In this document: piece by piece, positions 4,659 through 35,907 of the stretch
Layout: every line of letters begins with the position of its first letter
Position numbering within the stretch: the first letter of the stretch is position 1
Program-made: the position numbers and the translations under genes
From: Eledone cirrhosa
Taxonomy: Eukaryota
Direction: 5' to 3'
NCBI GenBank assembly: GCA_964016885.1
Contig: OZ024741.1
Location: 378,262,001-378,326,000, forward strand
Length of the DNA stretch: 64,000 bases
The notes under the pieces: model-generated
The model's database searches: none
What the model was told of the DNA's origin: nothing
Seen by the model: only the letters and a program-made list of their open reading frames with translations

Positions 4659-4691
4659 GTTGAATTGAGTGGAAAAGATGGGAAAGCCCAC

Positions 4692-6830: not shown

Positions 6831-6884
<54 letters not shown>

Positions 6885-6894
6885 TATTATTATT
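6831..6894. repeat. (TAA)n switching to (TTA)n
   Basis: About 17 TAA units, then about 4 TTA units. Confidence 0.95.
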
Positions 6895-6990
6895 GTCCCA
6901 AGTCTTAACAAAATGTTTAATCCCAACATTAAGGGAATTTAGGTCAACACATATACGCGACTAACCCCATATATTCACCGAACGGACATC

Positions 6991-9900
6991 AGTCCTTCAT
7001 TGCTACCACCGCTACAACACCATCACTACTGCCATCATTACTACCACTATCCCATCACCGCCACCACCACTCCTTCATTGCTACCACCGCTACAACACCA
7101 TCACTACAGTAATACGATCACATCACCACCACTGCCTCGGTATCGACATCACCACCACCACTGTCTCAGTATCGCTACCGCCGCTATTCTCTCCCATTGC
7201 TTCCTGCTAGTTGCTGCCACCATATTATAGAATTCCTACTAAAAAAGAGGAAGGCATCAAAATATATAGATATACTCAAAAGAAAAAAGAAAAAACAAAC
7301 ATCAAAACCAAAGCAGCACAGCAACAACAGCAAAACACGAGAAAAAAAAACAAAACAAAAAAAAAAAACAAACAAAAAAACAAACGTAAAGAAAATAAGA
7401 ATGAAGAGAGAAACAAGCGGACGGACAGAGAAGAGAAGGGAAAAACCAAGTCAAACATTCGAACACTACATTACAATGAAACTTATGCTTATTCATTTTG
7501 GGGTTTTTTCTGCCTGTGTGTTTGTTTATTTGTGTTCGTCTACAGCGTGGTGATAATGCCACACAAGAGCCAAGTGGAGCGGCGAAACCACCGGAGACGG
7601 TGAATCCACAGACAGATGGCTATGTAACCATACATTCGCCAATCCTCGATAAGAGTGTTTAAATATCGAACCTAAACAGTTCGAATAACGGTGAAATGGA
7701 GACTAGAACGTCATGTGACAGACTCTCACCCAACAGGTGCTCCCTGGCTCAGCAGCAGGAACCTGACTGTCAACCAAATACTGCTGGTGTTGGAGGAAGA
7801 AGAAGAAGGAAAGGGGCCAGAACCAACTGGACGAAAGAATTGAATAGAACTGTTATGCAATGTTACCTGAAAAGTAACCCCAAGGAGAGGGGCTATAGGA
7901 GACGGATGCATAACATCTGGAACGAGATTGGTCTATTTAAATTAGATGAACAAAAATTGGCCGGGCAGGCTCGGGTAATAAGAACTAATGGGTGGAGAAG
8001 CGAGCTGGAACTGGAGGAACTGAGCAGAGAGAATAGCTTGGAGATGGAGGGTGTAGTATGCCAGACAAACGAGCCAGTGGGAAATGAAGGTGAAGAGGTC
8101 GAGAGAACGGAGGAACCACCAGAAGCAGACAATGATCTGAATACTGAGATAAATAATACCTGGAACAGAGATACGGACACGGAGGAGATGAATGCTGACG
8201 GGCTAGGACAAGATTCGGTTGACATCCTAAATTTAGTGGTAGATGAAATGAACAATGATAGTGGGAGACCTATGAACCTAAGATTTGTAGACAGGAAAAA
8301 GTTAAAAGAAACAACAGCTAAGGTAAACAAAGTCATCCCATACCTTGAGGCGAGGAGCCTTCACCAGTGTAACAATATCCTCAAAGCAACAGCAAATACG
8401 GTGAGAAAACTACTTGGTATAAAAGCGAGAGGAAACAACAGGCAAGAAAGAGCAGAGCCTTGGTAGAAGAAACGACTGAGTGGTCAAATCAAGGAAATGA
8501 GAAATGAGATAGGAAAGCTTGAGTCACTACTGAATCGGACACTAAAAAACATAGGCACTAAAAATAGACTGGAAATAAAGTACAAAACTAGTAGGAAAAA
8601 GCTAAATATTATCATAGAGGAACTGAAGCAACGCATTGTAGCAAAGAGTGCAAAAATGAGGCGATACAAGAACAGAGTCTGTCAGTATAAACAGAACCGC
8701 ATGTTCGACAACAACTAGAAGATGCTGTTTGGACAGCTTGAGGGGAAAGAAAGAGGCAACGACTTGATCCCTGAGGCGGAACAAACTAAAACATTCTGGA
8801 GAGGAATATGGGAGCATGATATTAGACATAATGACCAGGCAGGGTGGATTGAGACAGTACAGAGGGAGATCGGTGAGCAGGCATACCAACAAACTGATTT
8901 GAGTATCACAGTTGAAACTCTTAAGGGGCAGGCCAAAAACATAACCAACTGGAAATCACCAGGCCCAGATGGTGTGCAGGGGTATTGGATTAAAAATTTA
9001 ACATCCCTCCACCCGAAACTGACAGCCATATTCAATGACTGCTTGGTGTCGGGTGAGGTGCCAGAGTGGTTGACAAAAGGTACCACAATTCTGATAATGA
9101 AAGACCGAATCAAGGGTAATGATGTTACCAACTATAGACTTATTACATGTCTGTCCGTAATGTGGAAACTGTTGACGAGCATTGTGTCTGAGGAAATCTA
9201 CCATCACCTCCACACAAACAACTTGTTACCGGACGAACAGAAAGGATGCCGAAAGAAGTCACGTGGTACAAAGGACCAGTTACTTATTGATAAGATGGTA
9301 ATGGGAAATTGCAGGAGGAGACACACTGATCTTGCCATGGGATGGATAGACTACAGAAAGGCATTTGACATGGTGCCTCGTTCTTGGATCACCAAAAGCC
9401 TGGAGATCTTCAAGGTGGCAGATAACATCAGACAGTTGCTGGGCAGGAGTATGGGGTCCTGGCAGACAGAGTTGTCATCAACTGGAGAATCCTTGGGAAG
9501 CGTGAAGATCAAGAGAGGTATCTTCCAGGGAGATAGGCTGTCCCCTCTGTTGTTTGTACTTGCCCTCATGCCCTTGACCATTATACTGCGAAAAGTGAGA
9601 GCAGGATATAAGTTGGGAAAGGGAGGACTTACCATCAATCACCTCCTCTTCATGGACGATCGTAAGCTCTTCGGGAAGAGTGAGAAGGAGTTGGATGTGC
9701 TTGTTGACAGTGTCCGTATTTTCAGCAGTGATATATGTATGCAGTTTGGTATTAGTAAGTGTGGAGTCATTGTGATGAGGAGGGGTAGGTTGAGCAGAAG
9801 TAACGGAATCCAGATACCAACAGGTGAGATGATAAAGGAAAATGACTCTGAGAAAGGATACAAGTATTTGGGCGTTCTGGAGGCTGATGGCATAAAGAAC

Positions 9901-11159
9901 AAAAAAATGAAGGAATTGTTAAGAACTGAATACATTTGGAGAGTAAGGAGCGTATTGAAGTCACATCTGAACAGCAGAAATGCCATAAGCGCAGTAAATT
10001 CCCGAGATGTGTCCATTATTAGGTACAGTGCGGGAATTCTGAGATGGAATGTTGCTGAACAAAAAGAGATGGATAGGAAGACTTGAAAGCTATTGACTAT
10101 CTACAACATGTTCCATAAGAGGAGTGATGTCGATAGACTCTACCTAAGGAGATCTGAGGGTGGAAGAGGTCTCATCAGCATAGAGGACTGTGTTCAGATG
10201 GAGAAAAACAACCTATACAAATACGTGACTGATAGTAAGGAGCCAATGCTCAGAACTGTACTGAAGGAGGGGACAATAGGCCAGGGGATATCCAAGGGGG
10301 AAATAACATCAAGGAGAAAGAGCAGCCTTCAGGGAAAATCCATTCATAGTACCTTCTTTGAGAAAACTGAATTTAGAGATCCACAGACATGGAAATGGTT
10401 GAGAAGAGGAGACCTCAAAAAGGCTACAGAAGGAATGTTAATGGCTGCGCAGGAGCAGGTCCTTAAAACGAAGTGGTTGAAACACCATATTTACAAGGAG
10501 GAGGCTAGCCCACTGTGCAGGATCTGTGGAGAGAGAGAGGAGACTGTGGCTCACATTGTATCCGAGTGTAAACACCTAGCCCAGACCTACTATAAGGGCT
10601 GGAGACATGATGTGATGGGCAGGGTGATCCACTGGCACCTGTGCAAAGTAAACAATTCACCACATTATGAGAAATGGTATGAGCATAGGCCAGAGGCGGT
10701 GATGGAGAACGATCACGTGAAGGCGCTGTGGGATTTTAGGATACAGACGGACAAGAAACTGGAACACAATAGACCTGATCTGGTGGTTGTGGACAAAGAA
10801 AAAAGATCGTGTCTGATTGTGGATGTGGCCTGCCCATTCGACACGAGAGTGCAAGAGAAGGAGAGGGAGAAAATTAACCGATACCAGGACTTAAAGTGGG
10901 AGGTAAAAAGGATTTGGAAATGCCATGAAGTCAAAGTGATCCCGATTGTCATAGGCGCACTGGGGACTATCTCCAAAAGTTTCCAGGATGGTTAAAGAAA
11001 ACGGCCCCTTCACGCTTTTTGGAACGCTTCAAAAGGCATGCTTGCTGGGAACAGCAAGAACCCTCCGATACGTCCTGAATATCTGAGGCTGCAGGTAATG
11101 GCTTGATATCCATTCCAACGGACTTTCCAGTTAACCAACATCAATGACTGAGATTCAAG

Positions 11160-11160
<1 letters not shown>
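6991..11160 (+). mobile_element. R4/Dong-like retrotransposon, array copy 1 (parent A)
   Basis: CCA-rich 5' UTR, single RT-CCHC-RLE ORF, short 3' UTR and (TAA)18 tail at 11161-11214. The 5' boundary is approximate. Confidence 0.9.
7696..11086 (+). pseudogene. Dong copy 1 RT/RLE polyprotein, disrupted
   Basis: In-frame stops at 8464, 8716 and 10084, plus a frameshift near 10987. Motifs KSPGPDG, IDYRKAFD, GIFQGD, FMDD, CRIC..H..SEC, RHD, RPDL..IVDVACP..K. Confidence 0.92.
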
Positions 11161-11214
<54 letters not shown>

Positions 11215-11215
<1 letters not shown>

Positions 11216-14200
11216 TTTTCGATCAGGAATGTTGGAGTCGAAAATGGCAAAATGACTAAACGACTACAAATTATTATTTCACCACCAATACCACCACCAC
11301 TACCACGAGGAAAACTCTGGTCAAATCGACTCAAATTTATACCCCAACTACAACACCATCACTACAGTAATGCGACCACATTACCACCACCACTGCCTCA
11401 GTATCGCTACCGCCGCTATTCTCTCCCACTACCTCCTACTAGTTGCTGCTAGCACAGCACCACCACCACATTGTAGAATTCCTACTAAAAGAAGACACCA
11501 TCACTACAGTAATACGACCACATCACCACCACCACTACCTCAGTATTGCTACCGCCGCTATTCTCTCCAACTGCCTCCTGCTAGTTGCTGCTAGCACAGC
11601 ACCGCCACGACATTGTAGAATTCCTACTAAAAAAGAGGAAGGCATAACAAAATATAGATAGACTCAAAAGAAAAAACAAAAATCAAAATCAAAGCAGCAC
11701 AGCAACAACAACAAAAAAAACGTAAAGAAAATAAGAATGAAGAGAGAAACAAACGGACGGACAGAGAAAGGAAGGGAAAACTAAGTCAGACATTCGAACA
11801 CTACATTACAATGAAACTTATGCTTATTCATTTTTGGGATTTTTTCTGCCTGTTTGTTTGTTTGTTTATTTTTGTTCGTCTACAGCGTGATAATGCCACA
11901 CAAGAGCCACGTGGAGTGACGCAACCACCGGAGACGGTGAATCTACCGGTGGTTATGTAACCATACAATCTCCAATCCTCGATAAGAGTGTTTAAATATC
12001 GAATCTAAACAATTCGAATAACGGTGAAATGGAGGCTAGAACGTCATGTGGAAGACTCTCACCCAAGAGGTGCTCCTTAGCTAAGCAGCAGGGACCTGGC
12101 TGTCAACCAAATACTGCTGGTGTCGGAGGAAGAAGAAGAAGGAAAGGGACCAGAACCAACTGGACGAAAGAATTGAATAGAACTGTTATGCAATGTTACC
12201 TGAAAAGTAACCCCAAGGAGAGGGGCTATAGGAAACGGATGCATAACATATGGAACGAGATTGGTCTATTTAAATTAGATGAAGAAAAATTGGCCGGGCA
12301 GGCTCGGGTAATAAGAACTAATGGGTGGATAAGCGATCTGGAACTGGAGGATCTGAGCAGAGAGATTAGCTTGGAGATGGAGGGTGGAGTATGCCAGGCA
12401 AACAAGCCAGTGGGAAATGAAGGTGATGAGGTCGAGAGAACGGAGGAACCACCCGAAGCAGACAATGATCTGAATACTGAGATAAATAATACCTGGAACA
12501 GAGATACGGCCACTGAGGAGATGAATGCTGACGAGCTAGGAGAAGATTTGGTTGATATCCTAAATTTAGTGGTAGATGAATTGAACAATGATAGTGGGAG
12601 ACCTATGAACCTAAGATTTGTAGACAGGAAAAAGTTAAAAAAACCAACAGCTAAGGTAAACAAAGTCATCCCATACCTTGAGGCGAGGAGCCTTCACCAG
12701 TGCAAACATATCCTCAAAGCAACAGCAAATACGGTGAGGAAACTACTTGGTATAAAAGCGAGAGGAAACAACAGACAAGAAAGAGCAGAGCCTTGGTGGA
12801 AGAAACGACTGAGTGGTCAAATCAGGGAAATGAGAAATGACATTGGAAAGCTTGAGTCCCTACTGAATGAGACACTAAAAAACATAGCCACTAAAAATAG
12901 ACTGGAAATAAAGTACAAAACTAGGATGAAAAAGCTAAATATTTTAATAGAGGAACTTAAGCAACGCATTGCAGCAAAGAGTGCAAAAATCAGGCGATAC
13001 GAGAACAGAGTCAGTCAGTATAAACAGAACCGCATGTTCGACAACAACCAGAAGATGCTGTTTGGACAGCTTGAAGGGAAAGAAAGAGGCAAATACTTGA
13101 TCCCTGAGGCGGAACAAACTAAAACATTCTGGAGAGGAATATGGGAGCAGGATGTTAGACATAATGACCAGGCAGGGTGGATTGAGACAGTAGAGAAGGA
13201 GATCAGTGAACAGGCATACCAACATACTGATTTGAGTATCACAGTTGAAACTCTTAAGGGGCAGGCCGAAAAACTAACCAACTGGAAATCACCAGGCCCA
13301 GATGGTGTGCAGGGATATTGGATTAAATATATAACATCCCTCCACCCGAAACTGACAACCATGTTCAATGACTGCTTGATGTCAGGTGAGGTACCAGAGT
13401 GGTTGACAAAAGGTACCACAGTTCTGATAATGAAAGACCGAATCAAGGGTAATGATGTTACCAACTATAGACCTATCACATGTCTGTCCGTAATGTGGAA
13501 ACTGTTGACGAGCATTGTGTCTGAGGAAATCTACCATCACCTCCACACAAACAACTTGTTACCGGACGAACAGAAAGGATGCCGAAAGAAGTCACGTGGT
13601 ACAAAGGACCAGTTACTTATTGATAAGATGGTAATGGGGAATTGCAGGAGGAGACACACTGTTCTTGCCATGGGATGGATAGACTACAGAAAGGCATTTG
13701 ACATGGTGCCTCATTCTTGGATCACCAAAAGCCCGGAGATCTTCAAGGTGGCAGATAACATCAGACAGTTGTTGGGCAAACGTATGAGGTCCTGGGAAAC
13801 AGAGTTGACATCAACTGGAGAATCCTTGGGAAGCGTCAATATCAAGAGAGGTATCTTCCAGGGAGATAGCCTGTCCCCTCTGTTGTTTGTCCTTGCCCTG
13901 ATGCCCCTGACCAGTGTACTGCGAAAAGTGAGAGCAGGATACAGGTTGGGGAAGGGAGGACTTACCATCAATCACCTCCTCTTCATGGACGATCTTAAGC
14001 TCTTCGGGAAGAGTGAGAAGGAGTTGGATGTGCTTGTTGACACTGTCCGTACTTTTAGCATTGATATATGTATGCAATTTGGTATTAGTAAGTGTGGAGT
14101 CATTGTGATGAGGAGGGATATGTTGAGCAGAAGTAACGGAATCCAGATACCAACAGGTGAGATGATAAAGGAAATTGACTCTGAGGAAGGATACAAGTAT

Positions 14201-15492
14201 TTGGGCGTTCTGGAGGATGATGGCATAAAGAACAAAAAAATGAAGGAATTGTTAAGAATTGAATACATTCGGAGAGTAAGGAGCGTATTGAAGTCACATC
14301 TGAACAGCAGAAATGCCATAAGCGCAGTAAATTCCCGAGCTGTGTCTATTATTAGGTACAGTGCGGGAATTCTGAGATGGAATGTTGCTGAACAAAAAGA
14401 AACGGATAGGAAGACTAGAAAGCTATTGACTATCTACAACATGTTCCATAAGAGGAGTGATGTCGATAGACTCTACCTAAGGAGATCTGAGGGTGGAAGA
14501 GGTCTCATCAGCATAGAGGACTGTGTTCAGATGGAGAAAAACAACCTATACAAATACGTGACTGATAGTAAGGAGCCAATGCTCAGAACTGTACTGAAGG
14601 AGGGGACAATAGGCCAGGGGATATCCAAGGGGGAAATAACATCAAGGAGAAAGAGCAGCCTTCAGGGAAAATCCATTCATAGTACCTTCTTTGAGAAAAC
14701 TGAATTTAGAGATCCACAGACATGGAAATGGTTGAGAAGAGGAGACCTCAAAAAGGCTACAGAAGGAATGTTAATGGCTGCGCAGGAGCAGGTCCTTAAA
14801 ACGAAGTGGTTGAAACACCATATTTACAAGGAGGAGGCTAGCCCACTGTGCAGGATCTGTGGAGAGAGAGAGGAGACTGTGGCTCACATTGTATCCGAGT
14901 GTAAACACCTAGCCCAGACCTACTATAAGGGCTGGAGACATAATGTGATGGGCAGGGTGATCCACTGGCACCTGTGCAAAGTAAACAATTCACCACATTA
15001 TGAGAAATGGTATGAGCATAGGCCAGAGGCGGTGATGGAGAACGATCACGTGAAGGCGCTGTGGGATTTTAGGATACAGACGGACAAGAAACTGGAACAC
15101 AATAGACCTGATCTGGTGGTTGTGGACAAAGAAAAAAGATCGTGTCTGATTGTGGATGTGGCCTGCCCATTCGACACGAGAGTGCAAGAGAAGGAGAGGG
15201 AGAAAATTAACCGATACCAGGACTTAAAGTGGGAGGTAAAAAGGATTTGGAAATGCCATGAAGTCAAAGTGATCCCGATTGTCATAGGCGCACTGGGGAC
15301 TATCTCCAAAAGTTTCCAGGATGGTTAAAGAAAACGGCCCCTACACGCTTTTTGGAACGCTTCAAAAGGCATGCTTGCTGGGAACAGCAAGAACCCTCCG
15401 ATACGTCCTGAATATCTGAGGCTGCAGGTAATGGCTTGATATCCATTCCAACGGACTTTCCAGTTAACCAACATCAATGACTGAGATTCAAG

Positions 15493-15553
<61 letters not shown>
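11215..15553 (+). mobile_element. R4/Dong-like array copy 2 (B-5'/A-3' chimera)
   Basis: Full unit between TAA tracts; tail at 15494-15553. Confidence 0.93.
12029..15328 (+). CDS. R4/Dong-like polyprotein, 1099 aa: N-terminal Myb-like region, RT, CCHC knuckle, restriction-like endonuclease
   Basis: Uninterrupted ORF with NYRPITCL, GIFQGDSLSPLLF, FMDDLKL, YKYLG, CRICGEREETVAHIVSEC and RPDLVVVD..IVDVACP..KINRY. It lacks the last ~30 aa (..ACLLGTARTLRYVLNI, seen in copy 5) because of a 1-nt deletion. Confidence 0.9.
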   Translation: MEARTSCGRLSPKRCSLAKQQGPGCQPNTAGVGGRRRRKGTRTNWTKELNRTVMQCYLKSNPKERGYRKRMHNIWNEIGLFKLDEEKLAGQARVIRTNGWISDLELEDLSREISLEMEGGVCQANKPVGNEGDEVERTEEPPEADNDLNTEINNTWNRDTATEEMNADELGEDLVDILNLVVDELNNDSGRPMNLRFVDRKKLKKPTAKVNKVIPYLEARSLHQCKHILKATANTVRKLLGIKARGNNRQERAEPWWKKRLSGQIREMRNDIGKLESLLNETLKNIATKNRLEIKYKTRMKKLNILIEELKQRIAAKSAKIRRYENRVSQYKQNRMFDNNQKMLFGQLEGKERGKYLIPEAEQTKTFWRGIWEQDVRHNDQAGWIETVEKEISEQAYQHTDLSITVETLKGQAEKLTNWKSPGPDGVQGYWIKYITSLHPKLTTMFNDCLMSGEVPEWLTKGTTVLIMKDRIKGNDVTNYRPITCLSVMWKLLTSIVSEEIYHHLHTNNLLPDEQKGCRKKSRGTKDQLLIDKMVMGNCRRRHTVLAMGWIDYRKAFDMVPHSWITKSPEIFKVADNIRQLLGKRMRSWETELTSTGESLGSVNIKRGIFQGDSLSPLLFVLALMPLTSVLRKVRAGYRLGKGGLTINHLLFMDDLKLFGKSEKELDVLVDTVRTFSIDICMQFGISKCGVIVMRRDMLSRSNGIQIPTGEMIKEIDSEEGYKYLGVLEDDGIKNKKMKELLRIEYIRRVRSVLKSHLNSRNAISAVNSRAVSIIRYSAGILRWNVAEQKETDRKTRKLLTIYNMFHKRSDVDRLYLRRSEGGRGLISIEDCVQMEKNNLYKYVTDSKEPMLRTVLKEGTIGQGISKGEITSRRKSSLQGKSIHSTFFEKTEFRDPQTWKWLRRGDLKKATEGMLMAAQEQVLKTKWLKHHIYKEEASPLCRICGEREETVAHIVSECKHLAQTYYKGWRHNVMGRVIHWHLCKVNNSPHYEKWYEHRPEAVMENDHVKALWDFRIQTDKKLEHNRPDLVVVDKEKRSCLIVDVACPFDTRVQEKEREKINRYQDLKWEVKRIWKCHEVKVIPIVIGALGTISKSFQDG

Positions 15554-15554
<1 letters not shown>

Positions 15555-18500
15555 TTTTCGATCAGGAATGTTGGAGTCGAAAATGGCAAAATGACTAAAC
15601 GACTACAAATTATTATTTCACCACCAATACCACCACCACTACCACGAGGAAAACTCTGGTCAAATCGACTCAAATTTATACCCCAACTACAACACCATCA
15701 CTACAGTAATGCGACCACATTACCACCACCACTGCCTCAGTATCGCTACCGCCGCTATTCTCTCCCACTACCTCCTACTAGTTGCTGCTAGCACAGCACC
15801 ACCACCACATTGTAGAATTCCTACTAAAAGAAGACACCATCACTACAGTAATACGACCACATCACCACCACCACTACCTCAGTATTGCTACCGCCGCTAT
15901 TCTCTCCAACTGCCTCCTGCTAGTTGCTGCTAGCACAGCACCGCCACGACATTGTAGAATTCCTACTAAAAAAGAGGAAGGCATAACAAAATATAGATAG
16001 ACTCAAAAGAAAAAACAAAAATCAAAATCAAAGCAGCACAGCAACAACAACAAAAAAAACGTAAAGAAAATAAGAATGAAGAGAGAAACAAACGGACGGA
16101 CAGAGAAAGGAAGGGAAAACTAAGTCAGACATTCGAACACTACATTACAATGAAACTTATGCTTATTCATTTTTGGGATTTTTTCTGCCTGTTTGTTTGT
16201 TTGTTTATTTTTGTTCGTCTACAGCGTGATAATGCCACACAAGAGCCACGTGGAGTGACGCAACCACCGGAGACGGTGAATCTACCGGTGGTTATGTAAC
16301 CATACAATCTCCAATCCTCGATAAGAGTGTTTAAATATCGAATCTAAACAATTCGAATAACGGTGAAATGGAGGCTAGAACGTCATGTGGAAGACTCTCA
16401 CCCAAGAGGTGCTCCTTAGCTAAGCAGCAGGGACCTGGCTGTCAACCAAATACTGCTGGTGTCGGAGGAAGAAGAAGAAGGAAAGGGACCAGAACCAACT
16501 GGACGAAAGAATTGAATAGAACTGTTATGCAATGTTACCTGAAAAGTAACCCCAAGGAGAGGGGCTATAGGAAACGGATGCATAACATATGGAACGAGAT
16601 TGGTCTATTTAAATTAGATGAAGAAAAATTGGCCGGGCAGGCTCGGGTAATAAGAACTAATGGGTGGATAAGCGATCTGGAACTGGAGGAACTGAGCAGA
16701 GAGATTAGCTTGGAGATGGAGGGTGGAGTATGCCAGGCAAACAAGCCAGTGGGAAATGAAGGTGATGAGGTCGAGAGAACGGAGGAACCACCCGAAGCAG
16801 ACAATGATCTGAATACTGAGATAAATAATACCTGGAACAGAGATACGGCCACTGAGGAGATGAATGCTGACGAGCTAGGAGAAGATTTGGTTGATATCCT
16901 AAATTTAGTGGTAGATGAATTGAACAATGATAGTGGGAGACCTATGAACCTAAGATTTGTAGACAGGAAAAAGTTAAAAAAACCAACAGCTAAGGTAAAC
17001 AAAGTCATCCCATACCTTGAGGCGAGGAGCCTTCACCAGTGCAAACATATCCTCAAAGCAACAGCAAATACGGTGAGGAAACTACTTGGTATAAAAGCGA
17101 GAGGAAACAACAGACAAGAAAGAGCAGAGCCTTGGTGGAAGAAACGACTGAGTGGTCAAATCAGGGAAATGAGAAATGACATTGGAAAGCTTGAGTCCCT
17201 ACTGAATGAGACACTAAAAAACATAGCCACTAAAAATAGACTGGAAATAAAGTACAAAACTAGGATGAAAAAGCTAAATATTTTAATAGAGGAACTTAAG
17301 CAACGCATTGCAGCAAAGAGTGCAAAAATCAGGCGATACGAGAACAGAGTCAGTCAGTATAAACAGAACCGCATGTTCGACAACAACCAGAAGATGCTGT
17401 TTGGACAGCTTGAAGGGAAAGAAAGAGGCAAATACTTGATCCCTGAGGCGGAACAAACTAAAACATTCTGGAGAGGAATATGGGAGCAGGATGTTAGACA
17501 TAATGACCAGGCAGGGTGGATGGAGACAGTAGAGAAGGAGATCAGTGAACAGGCATACCAACATACTGATTTGAGTATCACAGTTGAAACTCTTAAGGGG
17601 CAGGCCGAAAAACTAACCAACTGGAAATCACCAGGCCCAGATGGTGTGCAGGGATATTGGATTAAATATATAACATCCCTCCACCCGAAACTGACAACCA
17701 TGTTCAATGACTGCTTGATGTCAGGTGAGGTACCAGAGTGGTTGACAAAAGGTACCACAGTTCTGATAATGAAAGACCGAATCAAGGGTAATGATGTTAC
17801 CAACTATAGACCTATCACATGTCTGTCCGTAATGTGGAAACTGTTGACGAGCATTGTGTCTGAGGAAATCTACCATCACCTCCACACAAACAACTTGTTA
17901 CCGGACGAACAGAAAGGATGCCGAAAGAAGTCACGTGGTACAAAGGACCAGTTACTTATTGATAAGATGGTAATGGGGAATTGCAGGAGGAGACACACTG
18001 TTCTTGCCATGGGATGGATAGACTACAGAAAGGCATTTGACATGGTGCCTCATTCTTGGATCACCAAAAGCCCGGAGATCTTCAAGGTGGCAGATAACAT
18101 CAGACAGTTGTTGGGCAAACGTATGAGGTCCTGGGAAACAGAGTTGACATCAACTGGAGAATCCTTGGGAAGCGTCAATATCAAGAGAGGTATCTTCCAG
18201 GGAGATAGCCTGTCCCCTCTGTTGTTTGTCCTTGCCCTGATGCCCCTGACCAGTGTACTGCGAAAAGTGAGAGCAGGATACAGGTTGGGGAAGGGAGGAC
18301 TTACCATCAATCACCTCCTCTTCATGGACGATCTTAAGCTCTTCGGGAAGAGTGAGAAGGAGTTGGATGTGCTTGTTGACACTGTCCGTACTTTTAGCAT
18401 TGATATATGTATGCAATTTGGTATTAGTAAGTGTGGAGTCATTGTGATGAGGAGGGGTATGTTGAGCAGAAGTAACGGAATCCAGATACCAACAGGTGAG

Positions 18501-19832
18501 ATGATAAAGGAAATTGACTCTGAGGAAGGATACAAGTATTTGGGCGTTCTGGAGGATGATGGCATAAAGAACAAAAAAATGAAGGAATTGTTAAGAATTG
18601 AATACATTCGGAGAGTAAGGAGCGTATTGAAGTCACATCTGAACAGCAGAAATGCCATAAGCGCAGTAAATTCCCGAGCTGTGTCTATTATTAGGTACAG
18701 TGCGGGAATTCTGAGATGGAATGTTGCTGAACAAAAAGAAACGGATAGGAAGACTAGAAAGCTATTGACTATCTACAACATGTTCCATAAGAGGAGTGAT
18801 GTCGATAGACTCTACCTAAGGAGATCTGAGGGTGGAAGAGGTCTCATCAGCATAGAGGACTGTGTTCAGATGGAGAAAAACAACCTATACAAATACGTGA
18901 CTGATAGTAAGGAGCCAATGCTCAGAACTGTACTGAAGGAGGGGACAATAGGCCAGGGGATATCCAAGGGGGAAATAACATCAAGGAGAAAGAGCAGCCT
19001 TCAGGGGAAAATCCATTCATAGTACCTTCTTTGAGAAAACTGAATTTAGAGATCCACAGACATGGAAATGGTTGAGAAGAGGAGACCTCAAAAAGGCTAC
19101 AGAAGGAATGTTAATGGCTGCGCAGGAGCAGGTCCTTAAAACGAAGTGGTTGAAACACCATATTTACAAGGAGGAGGCTAGCCCACTGTGCAGGATCTGT
19201 GGAGAGAGAGAGGAGACTGTGGCTCACATTGTATCCGAGTGTAAACACCTAGCCCAGACCTACTATAAGGGCTGGAGACATGATGTGATGGGCAGGGTGA
19301 TCCACTGGCACCTGTGCAAAGTAAACAATTCACCACATTATGAGAAATGGTATGAGCATAGGCCAGAGGCGGTGATGGAGAACGATCACGTGAAGGCGCT
19401 GTGGGATTTTAGGATACAGACGGACAAGAAACTGGAACACAATAGACCTGATCTGGTGGTTGTGGACAAAGAAAAAAGATCGTGTCTGATTGTGGATGTG
19501 GCCTGCCCATTCGACACGAGAGTGCAAGAGAAGGAGAGGGAGAAAATTAACCGATACCAGGACTTAAAGTGGGAGGTAAAAAGGATTTGGAAATGCCATG
19601 AAGTCAAAGTGATCCCGATTGTCATAGGCGCACTGGGGACTATCTCCAAAAGTTTCCAGGATGGTTAAAGAAAACGGCCCCTACACGCTTTTTGGAACGC
19701 TTCAAAAGGCATGCTTGCTGGGAACAGCAAGAACCCTCCGATACGTCCTGAATATCTGAGGCTGCAGGTAATGGCTTGATATCCATTCCAACGGACTTTC
19801 CAGTTAACCAACATCAATGACTGAGATTCAAG

Positions 19833-19884
<52 letters not shown>
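15554..19884 (+). mobile_element. R4/Dong-like array copy 3 (chimera)
   Basis: Same unit; tail at 19834-19884. Confidence 0.93.
16368..19668 (+). pseudogene. Dong copy 3 polyprotein, one internal frameshift
   Basis: Extra G in a G-run at ~19004-19007 (caggggaaaa vs cagggaaaa); could be a homopolymer sequencing error. Confidence 0.85.
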
Positions 19885-19885
<1 letters not shown>

Positions 19886-22800
19886 TTTTCGATCAGGAAT
19901 GTTGGAGTCGAAAATGGCAAAATGACTAAACGACTACAAATTATTATTTCACCACCAATACCACCACCACTACCACGAGGAAAACTCTGGTCAAATCGAC
20001 TCAAATTTATACCCCAACTACAACACCATCACTACAGTAATGCGACCACATTACCACCACCACTGCCTCAGTATCGCTACCGCCGCTATTCTCTCCCACT
20101 ACCTCCTACTAGTTGCTGCTAGCACAGCACCACCACCACATTGTAGAATTCCTACTAAAAGAAGACACCATCACTACAGTAATACGACCACATCACCACC
20201 ACCACTACCTCAGTATTGCTACCGCCGCTATTCTCTCCAACTGCCTCCTGCTAGTTGCTGCTAGCACAGCACCGCCACGACATTGTAGAATTCCTACTAA
20301 AAAAGAGGAAGGCATAACAAAATATAGATAGACTCAAAAGAAAAAACAAAAATCAAAATCAAAGCAGCACAGCAACAACAACAAAAAAAACATAAAGAAA
20401 ATAAGAATGAAGAGAGAAACAAACGGACGGACAGAGAAAGGAAGGGAAAACTAAGTCAGACATTCGAACACTACATTACAATGAAACTTATGCTTATTCA
20501 TTTTTGGGATTTTTTCTGCCTGTTTGTTTGTTTGTTTATTTTTGTTCGTCTACAGCGTGATAATGCCACACAAGAGCCACGTGGAGTGACGCAACCACCG
20601 GAGACGGTGAATCTACCGGTGGTTATGTAACCATACAATCTCCAATCCTCGATAAGAGTGTTTAAATATCGAATCTAAACAATTCGAATAACGGTGAAAT
20701 GGAGGCTAGAACGTCATGTGGAAGACTCTCACCCAAGAGGTGCTCCTTAGCTAAGCAGCAGGGACCTGGCTGTCAACCAAATACTGCTGGTGTCGGAGGA
20801 AGAAGAAGAAGGAAAGGGACCAGAACCAACTGGACGAAAGAATTGAATAGAACTGTTATGCAATGTTACCTGAAAAGTAACCCCAAGAGAGGGGCTATAG
20901 GAAACGGATGCATAACATATGGAACGAGATTGGTCTATTTAAATTAGATGAAGAAAAATTGGCCGGGCAGGCTCGGGTAATAAGAACTAATGGGTGGATA
21001 AGCGATCTGGAACTGGAGGAACTGAGCAGAGAGATTAGCTTGGAGATGGAGGGTGGAGTATGCCAGGCAAACAAGCCAGTGGGAAATGAAGGTGAAGAGG
21101 TCGAGAGAACGGAGGAACCACCAGAAGCAGACAATGATCTGAATACTGAGATAAATAATACCTGGAACAGAGATACGGCCACTGAGGAGATGAATGCTGA
21201 CGAGCTAGGAGAAGATTTGGTTGATATCCTAAATTTAGTGGTAGATGAATTGAACAATGATAGTGGGAGACCTATGAACCTAAGATTTGTAGACAGGAAA
21301 AAGTTAAAAAAACCAACAGCTAAGGTAAACAAAGTCATCCCATACCTTGAGGCGAGGAGCCTTCACCAGTGCAAACATATCCTCAAAGCAACAGCAAATA
21401 CGGTGAGGAAACTACTTGGTATAAAAGCGAGAGGAAACAACAGACAAGAAAGAGCAGAGCCTTGGTGGAAGAAACGACTGAGTGGTCAAATCAGGGAAAT
21501 GAGAAATGACATTGGAAAGCTTGAGTCCCTACTGAATGAGACACTAAAAAACATAGCCACTAAAAATAGACTGGAAATAAAGTACAAAACTAGGATGAAA
21601 AAGCTAAATATTTTAATAGAGGAACTTAAGCAACGCATTGCAGCAAAGAGTGCAAAAATCAGGCGATACGAGAACAGAGTCAGTCAGTATAAACAGAACC
21701 GCATGTTCGACAACAACCAGAAGATGCTGTTTGGACAGCTTGAAGGGAAAGAAAGAGGCAAATACTTGATCCCTGAGGCGGAACAAACTAAAACATTCTG
21801 GAGAGGAATATGGGAGCAGGATGTTAGACATAATGACCAGGCAGGGTGGATTGAGACAGTAGAGAAGGAGATCAGTGAACAGGCATACCAACATACTGAT
21901 TTGAGTATCACAGTTGAAACTCTTAAGGGGCAGGCCGAAAAACTAACCAACTGGAAATCACCAGGCCCAGATGGTGTGCAGGGATATTGGATTAAATATA
22001 TAACATCCCTCCACCCGAAACTGACAACCATGTTCAATGACTGCTTGATGTCAGGTGAGGTACCAGAGTGGTTGACAAAAGGTACCACAGTTCTGATAAT
22101 GAAAGACCGAATCAAGGGTAATGATGTTACCAACTATAGACCTATCACATGTCTGTCCGTAATGTGGAAACTGTTGACGAGCATTGTGTCTGAGGAAATC
22201 TACCATCACCTCCACACAAACAACTTGTTACCGGACGAACAGAAAGGATGCCGAAAGAAGTCACGTGGTACAAAGGACCAGTTACTTATTGATAAGATGG
22301 TAATGGGGAATTGCAGGAGGAGACACACTGTTCTTGCCATGGGATGGATAGACTACAGAAAGGCATTTGACATGGTGCCTCATTCTTGGATCACCAAAAG
22401 CCCGGAGATCTTCAAGGTGGCAGATAACATCAGACAGTTGTTGGGCAAACGTATGAGGTCCTGGGAAACAGAGTTGACATCAACTGGAGAATCCTTGGGA
22501 AGCGTCAATATCAAGAGAGGTATCTTCCAGGGAGATAGCCTGTCCCCTCTGTTGTTTGTCCTTGCCCTGATGCCCCTGACCAGTGTACTGCGAAAAGTGA
22601 GAGCAGGATACAGGTTGGGGAAGGGAGGACATACCATCAATCACCTCCTCTTCATGGACGATCTTAAGCTCTTCGGGAAGAGTGAGAAGGAGTTGGATGT
22701 GCTTGTTGACACTGTCCGTACTTTTAGCATTGATATATGTATGCAATTTGGTATTAGTAAGTGTGGAGTCATTGTGATGAGGAGGGGTATGTTGAGCAGA

Positions 22801-24161
22801 AGTAACGGAATCCAGATACCAACAGGTGAGATGATAAAGGAAATTGACTCTGAGGAAGGATACAAGTATTTGGGCGTTCTGGAGGCTGATGGCATAAAGA
22901 ACAAAAAAATGAAGGAATTGTTAAGAATTGAATACATTCGGAGAGTAAGGAGCGTATTGAAGTCACATCTGAACAGCAGAAATGCCATAAGCGCAGTAAA
23001 TTCCCGAGCTGTGTCTATTATTAGGTACAGTGCGGGAATTCTGAGATGGAATGTTGCTGAACAAAAAGAAACGGATAGGAAGATTAGAAAGCTATTGACT
23101 ATCTACAACATGTTCCATAAGAGGAGTGATGTCGATAGACTCTACCTAAGGAGATCTGAGGGTGGAAGAGGTCTCATCAGCATAGAGGACTGTGTTCAGA
23201 TGGAGAAAAACAACCTATACAAATACGTGACTGATAGTAAGGAGCCAATGCTCAGAACTGTACTGAAGGAGGGGACAATAGGCCAGGGGATATCCAAGGG
23301 GGAAATAACATCAAGGAGAAAGAGCAGCCTTCAGGGAAAATCCATTCATAGTACCTTCTTTGAGAAAACTGAATTTAGAGATCCACAGACATGGAAATGG
23401 TTGAGAAGAGGAGACCTCAAAAAGGCTACAGAAGGAATGTTAATGGCTGCGCAGGAGCAGGTCCTTAAAACGAAGTGGTTGAAACACCATATTTACAAGG
23501 AGGAGGCTAGCCCACTGTGCAGGATCTGTGGAGAGAGAGAGGAGACTGTGGCTCACATTGTATCCGAGTGTAAACACCTAGCCCAGACCTACTATAAGGG
23601 CTGGAGACATGATGTGATGGGCAGGGTGATCCACTGGCACCTGTGCAAAGTAAACAATTCACCACATTATGAGAAATGGTATGAGCATAGGCCAGAGGCG
23701 GTGATGGAGAACGATCACGTGAAGGCGCTGTGGGATTTTAGGATACAGACGGACAAGAAACTGGAACACAATAGACCTGATCTGGTGGTTGTGGACAAAG
23801 AAAAAAGATCGTGTCTGATTGTGGATGTGGCCTGCCCATTCGACACGAGAGTGCAAGAGAAGGAGAGGGAGAAAATTAACCGATACCAGGACTTAAAGTG
23901 GGAGGTAAAAAGGATTTGGAAATGCCATGAAGTCAAAGTGATCCCGATTGTCATAGGCGCACTGGGGACTATCTCCAAAAGTTTCCAGGATGGTTAAAGA
24001 AAACGGCCCCTTCACGCTTTTTGGAACGCTTCAAAAGGCATGCTTGCTGGGAACAGCAAGAACCCTCCGATACGTCCTGAATATCTGAGGCTGCAGGTAA
24101 TGGCTTGATATCCATTCCAACGGACTTTCCAGTTAACCAACATCAATGACTGAGATTCAAG

Positions 24162-24213
<52 letters not shown>
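19885..24213 (+). mobile_element. R4/Dong-like array copy 4 (chimera)
   Basis: Same unit; tail at 24163-24213. Confidence 0.93.
20699..23997 (+). pseudogene. Dong copy 4 polyprotein, one 5' frameshift (1029-aa downstream ORF)
   Basis: One G missing at ~20887 (caagagagg vs caaggagagg); could be a sequencing error. Confidence 0.85.
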
Positions 24214-24214
<1 letters not shown>

Positions 24215-27200
24215 TTTTCGATCAGGAATGTTGGAGTCGAAAATGGCAAAATGACTAAACGACTACAAATTATTATTTCACCACCAATACCACCACCACT
24301 ACCACGAGGAAAACTCTGGTCAAATCGACTCAAATTTATACCCCAACTACAACACCATCACTACAGTAATGCGACCACATTACCACCACCACTGCCTCAG
24401 TATCGCTACCGCCGCTATTCTCTCCCACTACCTCCTACTAGTTGCTGCTAGCACAGCACCACCACCACATTGTAGAATTCCTACTAAAAGAAGACACCAT
24501 CACTACAGTAATACGACCACATCACCACCACCACTACCTCAGTATTGCTACCGCCGCTATTCTCTCCAACTGCCTCCTGCTAGTTGCTGCTAGCACAGCA
24601 CCGCCACGACATTGTAGAATTCCTACTAAAAAAGAGGAAGGCATAACAAAATATAGATAGACTCAAAAGAAAAAACAAAAATCAAAATCAAAGCAGCACA
24701 GCAACAACAACAAAAAAAACGTAAAGAAAATAAGAATGAAGAGAGAAACAAACGGACGGACAGAGAAAGGAAGGGAAAACTAAGTCAGACATTCGAACAC
24801 TACATTACAATGAAACTTATGCTTATTCATTTTTGGGATTTTTTCTGCCTGTTTGTTTGTTTGTTTATTTTTGTTCGTCTACAGCGTGATAATGCCACAC
24901 AAGAGCCACGTGGAGTGACGCAACCACCGGAGACGGTGAATCTACCGGTGGTTATGTAACCATACAATCTCCAATCCTCGATAAGAGTGTTTAAATATCG
25001 AATCTAAACAATTCGAATAACGGTGAAATGGAGGCTAGAACGTCATGTGGAAGACTCTCACCCAAGAGGTGCTCCTTAGCTAAGCAGCAGGGACCTGGCT
25101 GTCAACCAAATACTGCTGGTGTCGGAGGAAGAAGAAGAAGGAAAGGGACCAGAACCAACTGGACGAAAGAATTGAATAGAACTGTTATGCAATGTTACCT
25201 GAAAAGTAACCCCAAGGAGAGGGGCTATAGGAAACGGATGCATAACATATGGAACGAGATTGGTCTATTTAAATTAGATGAAGAAAAATTGGCCGGGCAG
25301 GCTCGGGTAATAAGAACTAATGGGTGGATAAGCGATCTGGAACTGGAGGAACTGAGCAGAGAGATTAGCTTGGAGATGGAGGGTGGAGTATGCCAGGCAA
25401 ACAAGCCAGTGGGAAATGAAGGTGATGAGGTCGAGAGAACGGAGGAACCACCCGAAGCAGACAATGATCTGAATACTGAGATAAATAATACCTGGAACAG
25501 AGATACGGCCACTGAGGAGATGAATGCTGACGAGCTAGGAGAAGATTTGGTTGATATCTTAAATTTAGTGGTAGATGAATTGAACAATGATAGTGGGAGA
25601 CCTATGAACCTAAGATTTGTAGACAGGAAAAAGTTAAAAAAACCAACAGCTAAGGTAAACAAAGTCATCCCATACCTTGAGGCGAGGAGCCTTCACCAGT
25701 GCACAAATATCCTCAAAGCAACAGCAAATACGGTGAGGAAACTACTTGGTATAAAAGCGAGAGGAAACAACAGACAAGGAAGAGCAGAGCCTTGGTGGAA
25801 GAAACGACTGAGTGGTCAAATCAGGGAAATGAGAAATGACATTGGAAAGCTTGAGTCCCTACTGAATGAGACACTAAAAAACATAGCCACTAAAAATAGA
25901 CTGGAAATAAAGTACAAAACTAGGATGAAAAAGCTAAATATTTTAATAGAGGAACTTAAGCAACGCATTGCAGCAAAGAGTGCAAAAATCAGGCGATACG
26001 AGAACAGAGTCAGTCAGTATAAACAGAACCGCATGTTCGACAACAACCAGAAGATGCTGTTTGGACAGCTTGAAGGGAAAGAAAGAGGCAAATACTTGAT
26101 CCCTGAGGCGGAACAAACTAAAACATTCTGGAGAGGAATATGGGAGCAGGATGTTAGCCATAATGACCAGGCAGGGTGGATTGAGACAGTAGAGAAGGAG
26201 ATCAGTGAACAGGCATACCAACATACTGATTTGAGTATCACAGTTGAAACTCTTAAGGGGCAGGCCGAAAAACTAACCAACTGGAAATCACCAGGCCCAG
26301 ATGGTGTGCAGGGATATTGGATTAAATATATAACATCCCTCCACCCGAAACTGACAACCATGTTCAATGACTGCTTGATGTCAGGTGAGGTACCAGAGTG
26401 GTTGACAAAAGGTACCACAGTTCTGATAATGAAAGACCGAATCAAGGGTAATGATGTTACCAACTATAGACCTATCACATGTCTGTCCGTAATGTGGAAA
26501 CTGTTGACGAGCATTGTGTCTGAGGAAATCTACCATCACCTCCACACAAACAACTTGTTACCGGACGAACAGAAAGGATGCCGAAAGAAGTCACGTGGTA
26601 CAAAGGACCAGTTACTTATTGATAAGATGGTAATGGGGAATTGCAGGAGGAGACACACTGTTCTTGCCATGGGATGGATAGACTACAGAAAGGCATTTGA
26701 CATGGTGCCTCATTCTTGGATCACCAAAAGCCCGGAGATCTTCAAGGTGGCAGATAACATCAGACAGTTGTTGGGCAAACGTATGAGGTCCTGGGAAACA
26801 GAGTTGACATCAACTGGAGAATCCTTGGGAAGCGTCAATATCAAGAGAGGTATCTTCCAGGGAGATAGCCTGTCCCCTCTGTTGTTTGTCCTTGCCCTGA
26901 TGCCCCTGACCAGTGTACTGCGAAAAGTGAGAGCAGGATACAGGTTGGGGAAGGGAGGACTTACCATCAATCACCTCCTCTTCATGGACGATCTTAAGCT
27001 CTTCGGGAAGAGTGAGAAGGAGTTGGATGTGCTTGTTGACACTGTCCGTACTTTTAGCATTGATATATGTATGCAATTTGGTATTAGTAAGTGTGGAGTC
27101 ATTGTGATGAGGAGGGGTATGTTGAGCAGAAGTAACGGAATCCAGATACCAACAGGTGAGATGATAAAGGAAATTGACTCTGAGGAAGGATACAAGTATT

Positions 27201-28501
27201 TGGGCGTTCTGGAGGCTGATGGCATAAAGAACAAAAAAATGAAGGAATTGTTAAGAATTGAATACATTCGGAGAGTAAGGAGCGTATTGAAGTCACATCT
27301 GAACAGCAGAAATGCCATAAGCGCAGTAAATTCCCGAGCTGTGTCTATTATTAGGTACAGTGCGGGAATTCTGAGATGGAATGTTGCTGAACAAAAAGAA
27401 ACGGATAGGAAGACTAGAAAGCTATTGACTATCTACAACATGTTCCACAAGAGGAGTGATGTCGATAGACTCTACTTAAAGTGATTTGAGGGTGGAAGAG
27501 GCCTTACCAGCATAGAGGACTGTGTTCAGATGGAGAAAAACAACCTACACAAATACGTGACTGATAGTAAGGAGCCAATGCTCAGAACTGTACTGAAGGA
27601 GGGGACAATAGTCCAGGGGATTTCCAAGGAGGAAATAACATCAAGGAGAAAGAGCAGCCTTCAGGAAAAATCCCTTCATAGTACCTTCTTTGAGAAAACT
27701 GAATTTAGAGATCCACAGATATGGAACTGGTTGAAAAGAGGAAACCTTAAAAAGGCTACAGAAGGAATGTTAATGGCTGCGGAGGAGCAGGTCCTTAAAA
27801 CGAAGTGGTTGAAACACCATATTTACAAGGAGGAGGCAAACCCACTGTGCAGGATCTGTGGAGAGAGAGGAGACTGTGGCTCACATTGTATCCGAGTGTA
27901 AACACCTAGCCCAGACCCACTATAAGGGCTGGAGACATGATGTGATGGGCAGGGTGATCCACTGGCACCTGTGCAAAGTAAACAATTTACCACATTCTGA
28001 GAAATTGTATGAGCATAAGCCAGAGGCGGTGATAGAGAACGATCAGGTGAAGGTGCTGTGGCATTTTAGGATACAGACGGACAAGAAACTGGAACACAAT
28101 AGACCTGACCTGGTGGTTGTGGACAAAGAAAAAAGATCGTGTCTGATTGTGGATGTGGCCTGCCCATTCGACACGAGAGTGCAAGAGAAGGAGAGGGAGA
28201 AAATTAACCGATACCAGGAATTAAAGTGGGAGGTAAAAAGGATTTGGAACTGCCATGAAGTCAAAGTGATCCCGATTGTCATAGGCGCACTGGGGACTAT
28301 CTCCAAAAGTTTCCAGGGATGGTTAAAGAAAACGGCCCTCTTCACGCTTTTTGGAACGCTTGAAAAGGCATGCTTGCTGGGAACAGCAAGAACCCTCCGA
28401 TACGTCCTGAATATCTGAGGCTGCAGGTAGTGGCTTGATATTCATTCCAACAAACTTTCCAGTTAACTAACATCAATGACTGAGACTAAAGGAGTAATAA
28501 C

Positions 28502-28550
<49 letters not shown>
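24214..28550 (+). mobile_element. R4/Dong-like array copy 5 (parent B)
   Basis: The 5' 3.2 kb matches copies 2-4; the 3' part from 27448 is diverged; tail at 28495-28550. Confidence 0.92.
25028..28418 (+). pseudogene. Dong copy 5 polyprotein, disrupted
   Basis: Stop at 27482 and a GA deletion near 27865; the native C-terminus RYVLNI* is retained. Confidence 0.9.
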
Positions 28551-28551
<1 letters not shown>

Positions 28552-29520
28552 AGCTGAAATGGAAAACACAGAAAAAGCAAAGCAGGTAAAAGTAACTACA
28601 AAGAAAGAACTGCTACAGAAACTGTCTAAGAAATGGTAAGAAAAGCCTCTGTATGGAAAATACCCAGAACGAGCTAACAATCCTGATGTTGACAAAACTT
28701 TAACCCATCAGTGGTTGGCACCTCTGGACTGAAATCGGAGACTGAAGGACTGATCATATCAGCACAAGATCAGTGTCTGCCAACAAAAAATTACCAAGCC
28801 AACATAATAAAAAATGGATGCAGCCCATTATGCCGTGTATGTAAAAAACAACCAGAGACTATTGATCATATAGCTCCAACCGAATACCTAAACAAGCATG
28901 ACAGAGCTGCACAATACATACATTGGATAATGTGAAAGCATTTTGACCTGCCCTATCAAAAGAATTGGTGGGAGCATCAACCACCTCCCATACTTGAAAG
29001 AGATAAAGATCACATCTCAATCTTGTGGAACTTTAGCATCCAAACAGACCGAAAAATAGATGCAAATAGACCTGATATAATATTGAAGGACTTTAAAAAG
29101 AGGGTATGCCTGCTAATTGATATGTCCGTTCCAATAGACAAGGATGTATCTATAAAAACATTTGAAAAATTGAGCAAGTATAAGGACCTGGAGATAGAAA
29201 TTGGAAAAATGTGGAAATTGAGAACTAAAACAATACCAGTGGTTGTAGGCGCTCTAGGAATGATAACTAAGGGGTCTAATGATTACTTATCGCAAATCCC
29301 AGGAAACCCGCATATAGGAGAAATACAAAAGATAGTACTAATGGGAACTGCCCACATATTAAGGAAGATTCTGTCAATATAATTACATCACAAGTCTAGA
29401 CACCTAAAGATGCATGTGTGAGTATGTATGTTCTTTCCTGAACATGGCGGACCCTGTTGTCTCTTGAGGTCACTGGTTGTGACTTGGTGATAACTCGTAT
29501 GAACATAAAGCAAGATAAAT
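28551..29520 (+). mobile_element. Second R4/Dong-like family (D), 5'-truncated copy D1
   Basis: LKSETEGLIISAQDQ, CRVC, RPDII..LIDMSVP, LMGTAHILRKILSI*; collinear with 31565-32550. Confidence 0.88.
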
Positions 29521-32500: not shown

Positions 32501-32557
32501 TCACTGGTTGTGACTTGGTGATAACTCGTATGAACATAAAGCAAGATAAATGCAACT

Positions 32558-32589: not shown

Positions 32590-32590
<1 letters not shown>

Positions 32591-35875: not shown

Positions 35876-35907
35876 GTTTAATATAGTGGAAAAATGGGAA
35901 TGACCAC

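What the first reader, a model, noticed from the sequence alone, without database searches (positions are those of the whole stretch)
6991..28550. Tandem Dong array built from two dead parents, with a recombination-restored near-full-length ORF
Seen: copy 1 (A) has stops at 8464, 8716 and 10084 in its 5' part. Copy 5 (B) has a stop at 27482 and a frameshift at ~27865 in its 3' part. Copies 2-4 carry B sequence up to actAgaaag (14417) and A sequence from ttccaTaag (14449). The switch lies in a 31-bp identical window (10085-10115 = 14418-14448 = 27417-27447), just after A's last stop and before B's first stop. Copy 2 is therefore an open 1099-aa RT-CCHC-RLE ORF, missing only ~30 C-terminal aa. 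Inference: unequal crossover or circle re-integration between adjacent A and B made the chimera, which was then amplified at the DNA level rather than by repeated retrotransposition. This would be a route to reviving a retroelement from pseudogenes.
Basis: partly seen in the sequence, partly recalled or inferred. Interest (0 to 1): 0.75.

Follow-up and report, generated by a model that had tools for sequence, protein, structure and literature searches.

The report
Tandem array from two dead retrotransposons
Two neighbouring broken copies of a jumping gene were likely joined by DNA recombination and multiplied into a five-copy row, but the long reading frame this left in one hybrid copy is truncated, mutated and has no detected offspring, so it is likely a chance by-product and not a revived element.

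Summary
Copies 2-4 are B in the 5' part and A in the 3' part, switching in one 31-bp tract. Dispersed family members show that A and B are whole elements of two subfamilies (5' and 3' alleles linked, rho 0.92; 0 of 39 dispersed copies are B5'/A3'). B's 5' truncation junction and A's 3' deletion signature each occur 4 times in the genome, all in this array. So a 4.33-kb unit was amplified as DNA, likely by unequal exchange, and no retrotransposed daughter was found. Revival is not supported. Copy 2 lacks the last 33 residues, including a helix present in 78 of 79 homologues. It carries 48 private amino-acid changes (dN/dS about 1.2) and lacks about 740 bp of the 5' UTR. No single A/B crossover can give a complete frame, and a dispersed intact copy already exists. 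A second duplication of the same type was found at another locus. The process is known (TE dimer expanded by unequal exchange). Reads could not confirm copy number. Earlier scan notes describe Dong stacks in this genome; the 8 shown did not describe this chimera type.

The parts
6831..6884 (+). (AAT)18 target microsatellite upstream of copy 1
6885..11160 (+). Copy 1 = parent A, A-subfamily element lacking about 430 bp of the 5' end; stops at 8464, 8716, 10084; 1-bp deletions near 10985 and 11001
10085..10115 (+). 31-bp identical crossover tract (= 14418-14448, 18757-18787, 23087-23117, 27417-27447); contains an allele at 10086 that is rare genome-wide but shared by all five copies
10085..14417 (+). 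Amplified unit 1 (A 3' part + (AAT)n + B 5' part), 4333 bp
14418..18756 (+). Amplified unit 2, 4339 bp
18757..23086 (+). Amplified unit 3, 4330 bp
23087..27416 (+). Amplified unit 4, 4330 bp
11216..15493 (+). Copy 2, B5'/A3' chimera, lacking about 740 bp of the B-type 5' UTR
12029..15328 (+). 1099-aa open frame of copy 2 (RT FMDD 652, CCHC 941-958, RH 970, PD 1027, D 1043); native residues 1098-1130 lost; 48 private amino-acid changes
15555..19833 (+). Copy 3, chimera with an extra G at 19004 (frameshift)
19886..24162 (+). Copy 4, chimera lacking one G at 20886 (frameshift)
21096..21123 (+). Short tract in copy 4 carrying A alleles inside B sequence (28-105 bp), likely gene conversion from copy 1
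24215..28494 (+). Copy 5 = parent B, B-subfamily element; stop at 27482, 2-bp deletion near 27860
28495..28550 (+). (AAT)n tail of B; the inner tails are 11161-11215, 15494-15554, 19834-19885 and 24163-24214 (18, 20, 17, 17 units)

Best explanation
The array is four head-to-tail copies of one 4.33-kb unit (A 3' end, AAT tail, B 5' part) lying between the outer halves of two decayed Dong-type LINEs, likely produced by unequal homologous exchange, and the long frame in copy 2 is likely a non-functional by-product. Steps: (1) Shown: the family sits in (AAT)n and ends in (AAT)n, so copies stack head to tail. B, 5'-truncated, sits in A's tail. (2) Shown: both decayed independently (53 and 66 private differences in 3433 bp). 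(3) Inferred: out-of-register pairing of A and B (about 95% identical) and a crossover in the 31-bp tract made A-C-B. (4) Inferred: further unequal exchanges between near-identical units raised the count stepwise, since copies 2 and 3 share two derived changes. Short conversion tracts moved alleles between copies. (5) Shown: the chimera inherits A's 3' frameshift and B's truncated head, and has changed neutrally since.
For: Subfamily linkage in 39 dispersed copies, Spearman rho 0.92, with 0 of 39 of the B5'/A3' type. Trees of the two halves move copies 2-4 from the B side to the A side, each array clade 100/100. B's head junction has 4 exact genome hits and A's double-deletion signature has 4, all in the array, against 5181 hits for a family 26-mer. 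Units differ by 5-11 substitutions (0.12-0.25%). Copies 2 and 3 share derived changes at 14217/18556 and 15343/19683. A second locus has the same pattern: middle copy 14 of 14 downstream-parent sites, then 35 upstream-parent sites and 1 private, with an intervening 474-bp piece duplicated without mismatch. Against function: 51 replacement to 11 silent private changes, dN/dS 1.2; 9:1 since amplification; 7 of 48 private changes at sites conserved in at least 80% of 79 homologues; lost helix 1109-1129 predicted at pLDDT 94-95 and present in 78 of 79 homologues.
Against: The crossover fell in a window that only 1.9% of positions offer, which is low for chance, though the mean over 240 ordered pairs of dead dispersed copies is 5.7%. 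B's 5' part has no stop where 2.5 were expected (P = 0.08). All catalytic motifs of RT and endonuclease are intact in copy 2. 7 of 48 changes at conserved sites is below the 12 expected from the 25% share of such sites. The 9:1 count is too small to be significant. Reads did not confirm copy number. Unequal crossover cannot be told from re-replication or circle re-integration of the same unit by sequence alone.
Confidence: 0.82

Rival explanations
1. Revival: recombination rebuilt a working ORF from two pseudogenes, and it was amplified because it is active or useful.
For: Crossover lies in the 1.9% window that clears all stops up to codon 1097. Catalytic motifs are intact. Read-through from the upstream copy could supply transcription (inference).
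Against: No single crossover gives a full frame (0 of 1130). Conserved terminal helix lost. dN/dS about 1.2; copy 2 gained G697D at a site invariant in 79 homologues after amplification. No daughters. A's last stop needs the allele at 10086 that B shares, so the stop may itself stem from the exchange, which would widen the window to codons 342-818 (direction of transfer unknown). An intact dispersed copy exists (L044, 1130 aa; 1 of 17 full-span copies).
Confidence: 0.04
2. A circle of one younger, nearly intact element (B5'+A3') integrated into one dead resident copy (A5'+B3') and was amplified, so all lesions belong to the resident.
For: It would explain why the stops sit in the outer halves.
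Against: In dispersed copies A5' alleles go with A3' (L059, L063, L053, L042, L035) and B5' with B3' (L062, L064, L060, L058, L055); 0 of 39 are B5'/A3'. Private change rates do not split inner from outer halves: B5' 46 and A5' 40 of 2389 bp; A3' 13 and B3' 20 of 1044 bp.
Confidence: 0.03
3. Assembly expansion: the true locus is A+B or A-C-B, and the assembler looped.
For: No spanning read was seen. Two of the unit differences are 1-bp indels in G runs.
Against: Units differ by 5-11 substitutions, with nested sharing in copies 2 and 3, four tails of 18, 20, 17 and 17 units, and an A-derived tract in copy 4. The switch sits in the 38th longest of 162 identity tracts, not the longest, 161 bp.
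Confidence: 0.08
4. Repeated retrotransposition of one chimeric source into its own tails.
For: The family does stack by insertion into (AAT)n tails.
Against: Four identical 5' truncation points found nowhere else. The unit is permuted: copy 1 shares only the 3' part and copy 5 only the 5' part. No dispersed sibling.
Confidence: 0.02

Closest known systems
TE dimers formed by double insertion and expanded by unequal exchange: R1 and hobo arrays in Drosophila melanogaster (McGurk and Barbash 2018, PMC5932611; passages read)
   Same: Site preference gives a head-to-tail dimer of non-LTR elements with distinct 5' truncations, then copy-number gain attributed to unequal exchange.
   Different: Here the two parents are about 5% apart and from different subfamilies, so the crossover tract, later conversion and stepwise order can be read directly. 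Only five copies.
LINE-LINE non-allelic homologous recombination in humans (Startek et al. 2015, PMC4344489; abstract and outline only)
   Same: Direct LINE pairs over 4 kb and about 95% identical act as recombination substrates with breakpoints inside the LINEs.
   Different: Here the pair is adjacent, so the duplicated segment is only element sequence, and it was amplified further.
R4/Dong clade non-LTR retrotransposons (PMC7998251 and PMC3774820; passages read)
   Same: Single ORF with RT, CCHC and restriction-like endonuclease; (TAA)n target.
   Different: Placement beside B. mori Dong was not tested by tree; no Rfam ribozyme hit at the 5' end.
Recombination between defective endogenous retroelements giving active or remobilised forms (recKoRV, PMC6112702, search listing only; mosaic mouse L1 lineage and recombinant murine retroviruses recalled, not read)
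   Same: Mosaic of two parent elements.
   Different: Those spread as new insertions; this chimera has no dispersed daughter and an incomplete frame.

Membership tests
R4/Dong non-LTR retrotransposon | Single ORF with reverse transcriptase | tested here: met
   PF00078 E=1.5e-23; one 1130-aa ORF in L044
R4/Dong non-LTR retrotransposon | CCHC motif then restriction-like endonuclease (RH, PD..D, K..Y) | tested here: met
   Motifs located; best sequence and fold matches are R2 proteins, E 2.6e-30 and 4.4e-36; motif roles from PMC4838377 passages
R4/Dong non-LTR retrotransposon | Insertion in (TAA)n | tested here: met
   35 of 38 dispersed 3' ends carry (AAT)4 or more; 18 of 24 truncated 5' ends abut (AAT)3 or more
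R4/Dong non-LTR retrotransposon | N-terminal Myb/SANT-like helices without zinc fingers | tested here: inconclusive
   Four helices predicted at 47-121; no Pfam hit there; no profile-profile test run
R4/Dong non-LTR retrotransposon | HDV-like ribozyme at the 5' end | tested here: inconclusive
   No Rfam ribozyme match in 7 loci with full 5' ends; the array copies lack that end anyway
R4/Dong non-LTR retrotransposon | Phylogenetic grouping with B. mori Dong or Ascaris R4 | not tested
   No named reference protein was available from the tools; the label Dong rests on architecture and target
TE dimer expanded by unequal exchange | Two independent insertions with different 5' truncations at one target | tested here: met
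   A lacks about 430 bp, B about 740 bp; different subfamilies
TE dimer expanded by unequal exchange | Inner copies share one junction and are parent chimeras | tested here: met
TE dimer expanded by unequal exchange | Copy-number variation between haplotypes or individuals | not testable with these tools
   Only graph contigs and a RAD library were available
Revived (active) recombinant retroelement | Complete ORF | tested here: not met
   33 C-terminal residues lost, about 10 of them at least 80% conserved
Revived (active) recombinant retroelement | Dispersed daughter insertions | tested here: not met
   4 of 4 genome hits to the 3' signature lie in the array; the one outside hit to the junction 40-mer shares no other array-private allele within its aligned part
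Revived (active) recombinant retroelement | Purifying selection on the frame | tested here: not met
   51:11 private and 9:1 post-amplification replacement:silent; small counts
Revived (active) recombinant retroelement | Expression and enzyme activity | not testable with these tools
   Needs locus-resolved RNA reads and assays

The most novel reading that the evidence does not exclude
Because this family inserts into its own (AAT)n tails, it builds the adjacent direct pairs that recombine. Such stacks act as a genome-wide shuffling ground where dead copies of different subfamilies exchange halves, and this is a source of the mosaic subfamilies seen among dispersed copies (for example L036, L037, L048). 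This locus would be a failed instance, caught with its crossover and conversion tracts intact.
Probability: 0.15. Interest if true: 0.6.

Novelty: new member of a known kind. Interest (0 to 1): 0.24.

Why it matters
It is a clean, readable example of how a site-specific LINE seeds a tandem array: two distinguishable parents let one map the crossover to 31 bp or less, see short conversion tracts, and order the duplication steps. With over 5000 copies and a second case found among 35 sampled loci, the family could yield a genome-wide set of mapped exchanges between 95-97% identical repeats in an invertebrate. It does not show revival of a retroelement from pseudogenes.

Tried and rejected
Circle of one intact element entering one dead copy: rejected by subfamily linkage. 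Dispersed daughter: two outside hits were followed. L070 shares only the two junction alleles, each at 0.6-0.7% genome-wide, so about 0.2 such hits are expected by chance. L077 is an older copy at 91.5% sharing 2 of 60 private alleles. Read tests: no RNA holder listed. Runs X1-X3 and X7 are graph contigs in pieces of at most 72 bp (141 bp in X7) and cannot bridge the 33-bp switch; no long locus-specific contig was listed, which proves nothing because such contigs drop rare variants. One contig carrying two rare array alleles had depth 51-52 against 7-9 for single joints, and its 31-mer has 4 assembly hits, 3 in the array; the tool states depth is no copy number, so this is not counted as evidence. 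Target-site duplications cannot be scored in (AAT)n. Rfam found no ribozyme. One search had a one-residue numbering offset, corrected; one search stopped on an index error after printing the table used. The original Dong paper was not held. No paper on revival of a non-LTR element by adjacent unequal exchange appeared in the listings; most subscription journals are not searched, and no supplements were read.
Full report
Anatomy. The window lies at G000:C2:378262001-378326000 in a 3.0-Gb genome. Self-comparison shows five head-to-tail copies of a 4.3-kb element between 6885 and 28550, separated by (AAT)n tracts of 18, 20, 17 and 17 units. The encoded protein has an RT domain (PF00078, E 1.5e-23), a CCHC motif and restriction-like endonuclease motifs. 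Its best solved relatives by sequence and by fold are R2 proteins. Of 38 dispersed 3' ends, 35 carry (AAT)4 or more, and 18 of 24 truncated 5' ends abut AAT repeats. That fits the R4/Dong description in PMC7998251 (passages). I did not test tree placement, so Dong is a label by architecture and target. A family 26-mer has 5181 exact hits in the genome. Earlier scan notes call the genome octopod; I did not test that.

Observation. Copies 2-4 switch from B to A across the 31-bp tract. Additions: A carries two 1-bp deletions near 10985 and 11001 that pass to copies 2-4, and copies 3 and 4 have one more frameshift each, in G runs.

Are A and B real parents? I fetched 35 dispersed loci, the non-window hits among the 40 scored of 2841 candidates. 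They are the best matches to the chimera, so they lean towards little-diverged copies. They gave 41 copies, of which 39 cover both halves; two without a 3' part were dropped. At 42 sites where both alleles occur in three or more dispersed copies, the share of A alleles in the 5' half predicts the share in the 3' half (Spearman 0.92). Copy 1 is 30/30 and 12/12 A, copy 5 is all B, and 0 of 39 dispersed copies are B5'/A3'. Some dispersed copies are other mosaics (L036, L037, L039, L048). Trees of 37 rows agree; the array clades are 100/100 but deeper subfamily forks are weak. This rejects the alternative that one younger intact element entered one dead copy.

DNA-level amplification. The repeated unit is permuted relative to the element: A 3' part, tail, B 5' part, four times. 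B's head junction has 4 exact genome hits and A's double-deletion 35-mer has 4, all in the array. Any retrotransposed daughter must carry the 3' end, so the second count says there is none in this assembly, barring later mutation in those 35 bases. The junction 40-mer has one outside hit, which shares no other array-private allele in its aligned part. Units differ by 5-11 substitutions, 0.12-0.25%, against 53 and 66 private differences in 3433 bp for A and B, so amplification is roughly 15-20 times younger than the decay of the parents (inference). Copies 2 and 3 share two derived changes 1.1 kb apart, pointing to stepwise gain. Copy 4 holds a 28-105 bp tract of A alleles, one of them absent from 20 of 20 dispersed copies. 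A and B share five substitutions absent from 33-40 dispersed copies, where about 0.5 is expected by chance (P about 2e-4), and lack one base that all 39 dispersed copies have. These are likely conversion tracts. One lies at 10086, inside the crossover tract; genome-wide that allele has 40 hits against 5181. A's last stop needs this base, so the stop may be a product of the exchange; the direction of transfer cannot be read.

Recurrence. At G000:C4 near 374.416-374.424 Mb a middle copy follows the downstream parent at 14 of 14 sites and then the upstream parent at 35 sites with 1 private, and a 474-bp piece between them is duplicated without mismatch. That is 1 case among the 35 loci, most of which were seen over only 6.5 kb.

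Is the ORF restored? No. I aligned 79 of the 120 listed homologues, those of 1050-1250 aa. The residues lost from copy 2 (1098-1130) include a motif with Q at 99%, R at 97% and several positions above 90%; 78 of 79 homologues cover it. A model of the natural intact copy L044 predicts helices 1096-1103 and 1109-1129, the latter at pLDDT 94-95. That the helix is required is inferred from conservation; PMC4838377 (passages) tested motifs only up to RG.W. No single crossover between A and B yields a full frame, 0 of 1130 positions. Copy 2 has 48 private replacements up to codon 1096, 7 at sites at least 80% conserved, including G697D at an invariant site gained after amplification; D972N gives the residue seen in 3 of 79 homologues and may be tolerated. 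Private replacement:silent is 51:11, dN/dS 1.2, against 554:270 in dispersed copies; since amplification it is 9:1. B's head lacks 738-744 bp of the 5' UTR seen in L062 and L064, the end where B. mori Dong has a self-cleaving ribozyme (PMC3774820, passages). One of 17 full-span dispersed copies has no lesion.

The crossover sits in a 1.9% window. B's 5' part has no stop against 2.5 expected (P 0.08). The catalytic motifs are intact, and conserved sites are hit less often than their 25% share (7 of 48). But 50 of 240 ordered pairs of dead dispersed copies have such a window, mean 5.7%, and the family has thousands of copies, so one such case is expected somewhere.

Assembly. Not excluded by reads, but substitutions between units, nested sharing, unequal tails and a switch in only the 38th longest identity tract argue against a loop.

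Comparison and verdict. The process matches TE dimers expanded by unequal exchange (PMC5932611, passages) and LINE-LINE recombination (PMC4344489, abstract). It is a new, well-resolved example of a known kind. Interest 0.24.

Noticed in passing
L066/L067, G000:C4 about 374,416,000-374,424,000: Second duplication of the same type: a 2.78-kb unit between two stacked family copies, with a chimeric middle copy and an identical duplicated short copy.
   Followed up: yes
window 8884/26216, 9627/26959, 10086/27418, 10460-10464/27792-27796, about 11001/28333: Rare alleles shared by parents A and B but by no sampled dispersed copy; the implied conversion tracts are at most 14-55 bp.
   Followed up: partly
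L036, L037, L039, L048, L050: Dispersed copies that are mosaics of A and B subfamily alleles; origin by template switch or DNA exchange not tested.
   Followed up: no
window 28549-29523 and 29588-32558: A second, distant RT-RLE family (36-41% identity to copy 2 protein) follows B's tail directly, with a 3' fragment repeated at 92.7%.
   Followed up: no
window 39650-43365: Older, degraded copy of the same family at about 85% identity.
   Followed up: partly
window 1842-6830 and 32590-37900, minus strand: Remnants of another LINE type lying antiparallel beside the AAT tracts; the second stretch has RT and APE-type endonuclease hits. Earlier scan notes describe this arrangement.
   Followed up: no
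sequencing runs: Words of this element are held by runs labelled as 16 different organisms, six besides the best holder at shares of 0.21-0.31; close relatives or horizontal spread not examined.
   Followed up: no
L053, L059, L050, L062, L064 5' ends: Full-length copies begin with a conserved purine-rich end directly after (TAA)n, and the 5' UTR varies from about 1170 to 1720 bp between subfamilies; no Rfam match.
   Followed up: partly
L035 3846-5934: A minisatellite of roughly 96-bp period lies next to a family copy.
   Followed up: no
window 12705-12707 vs 25704-25706: Copies 2-4 and copy 5 carry two different derived placements of one C within an A run, unexplained.
   Followed up: no
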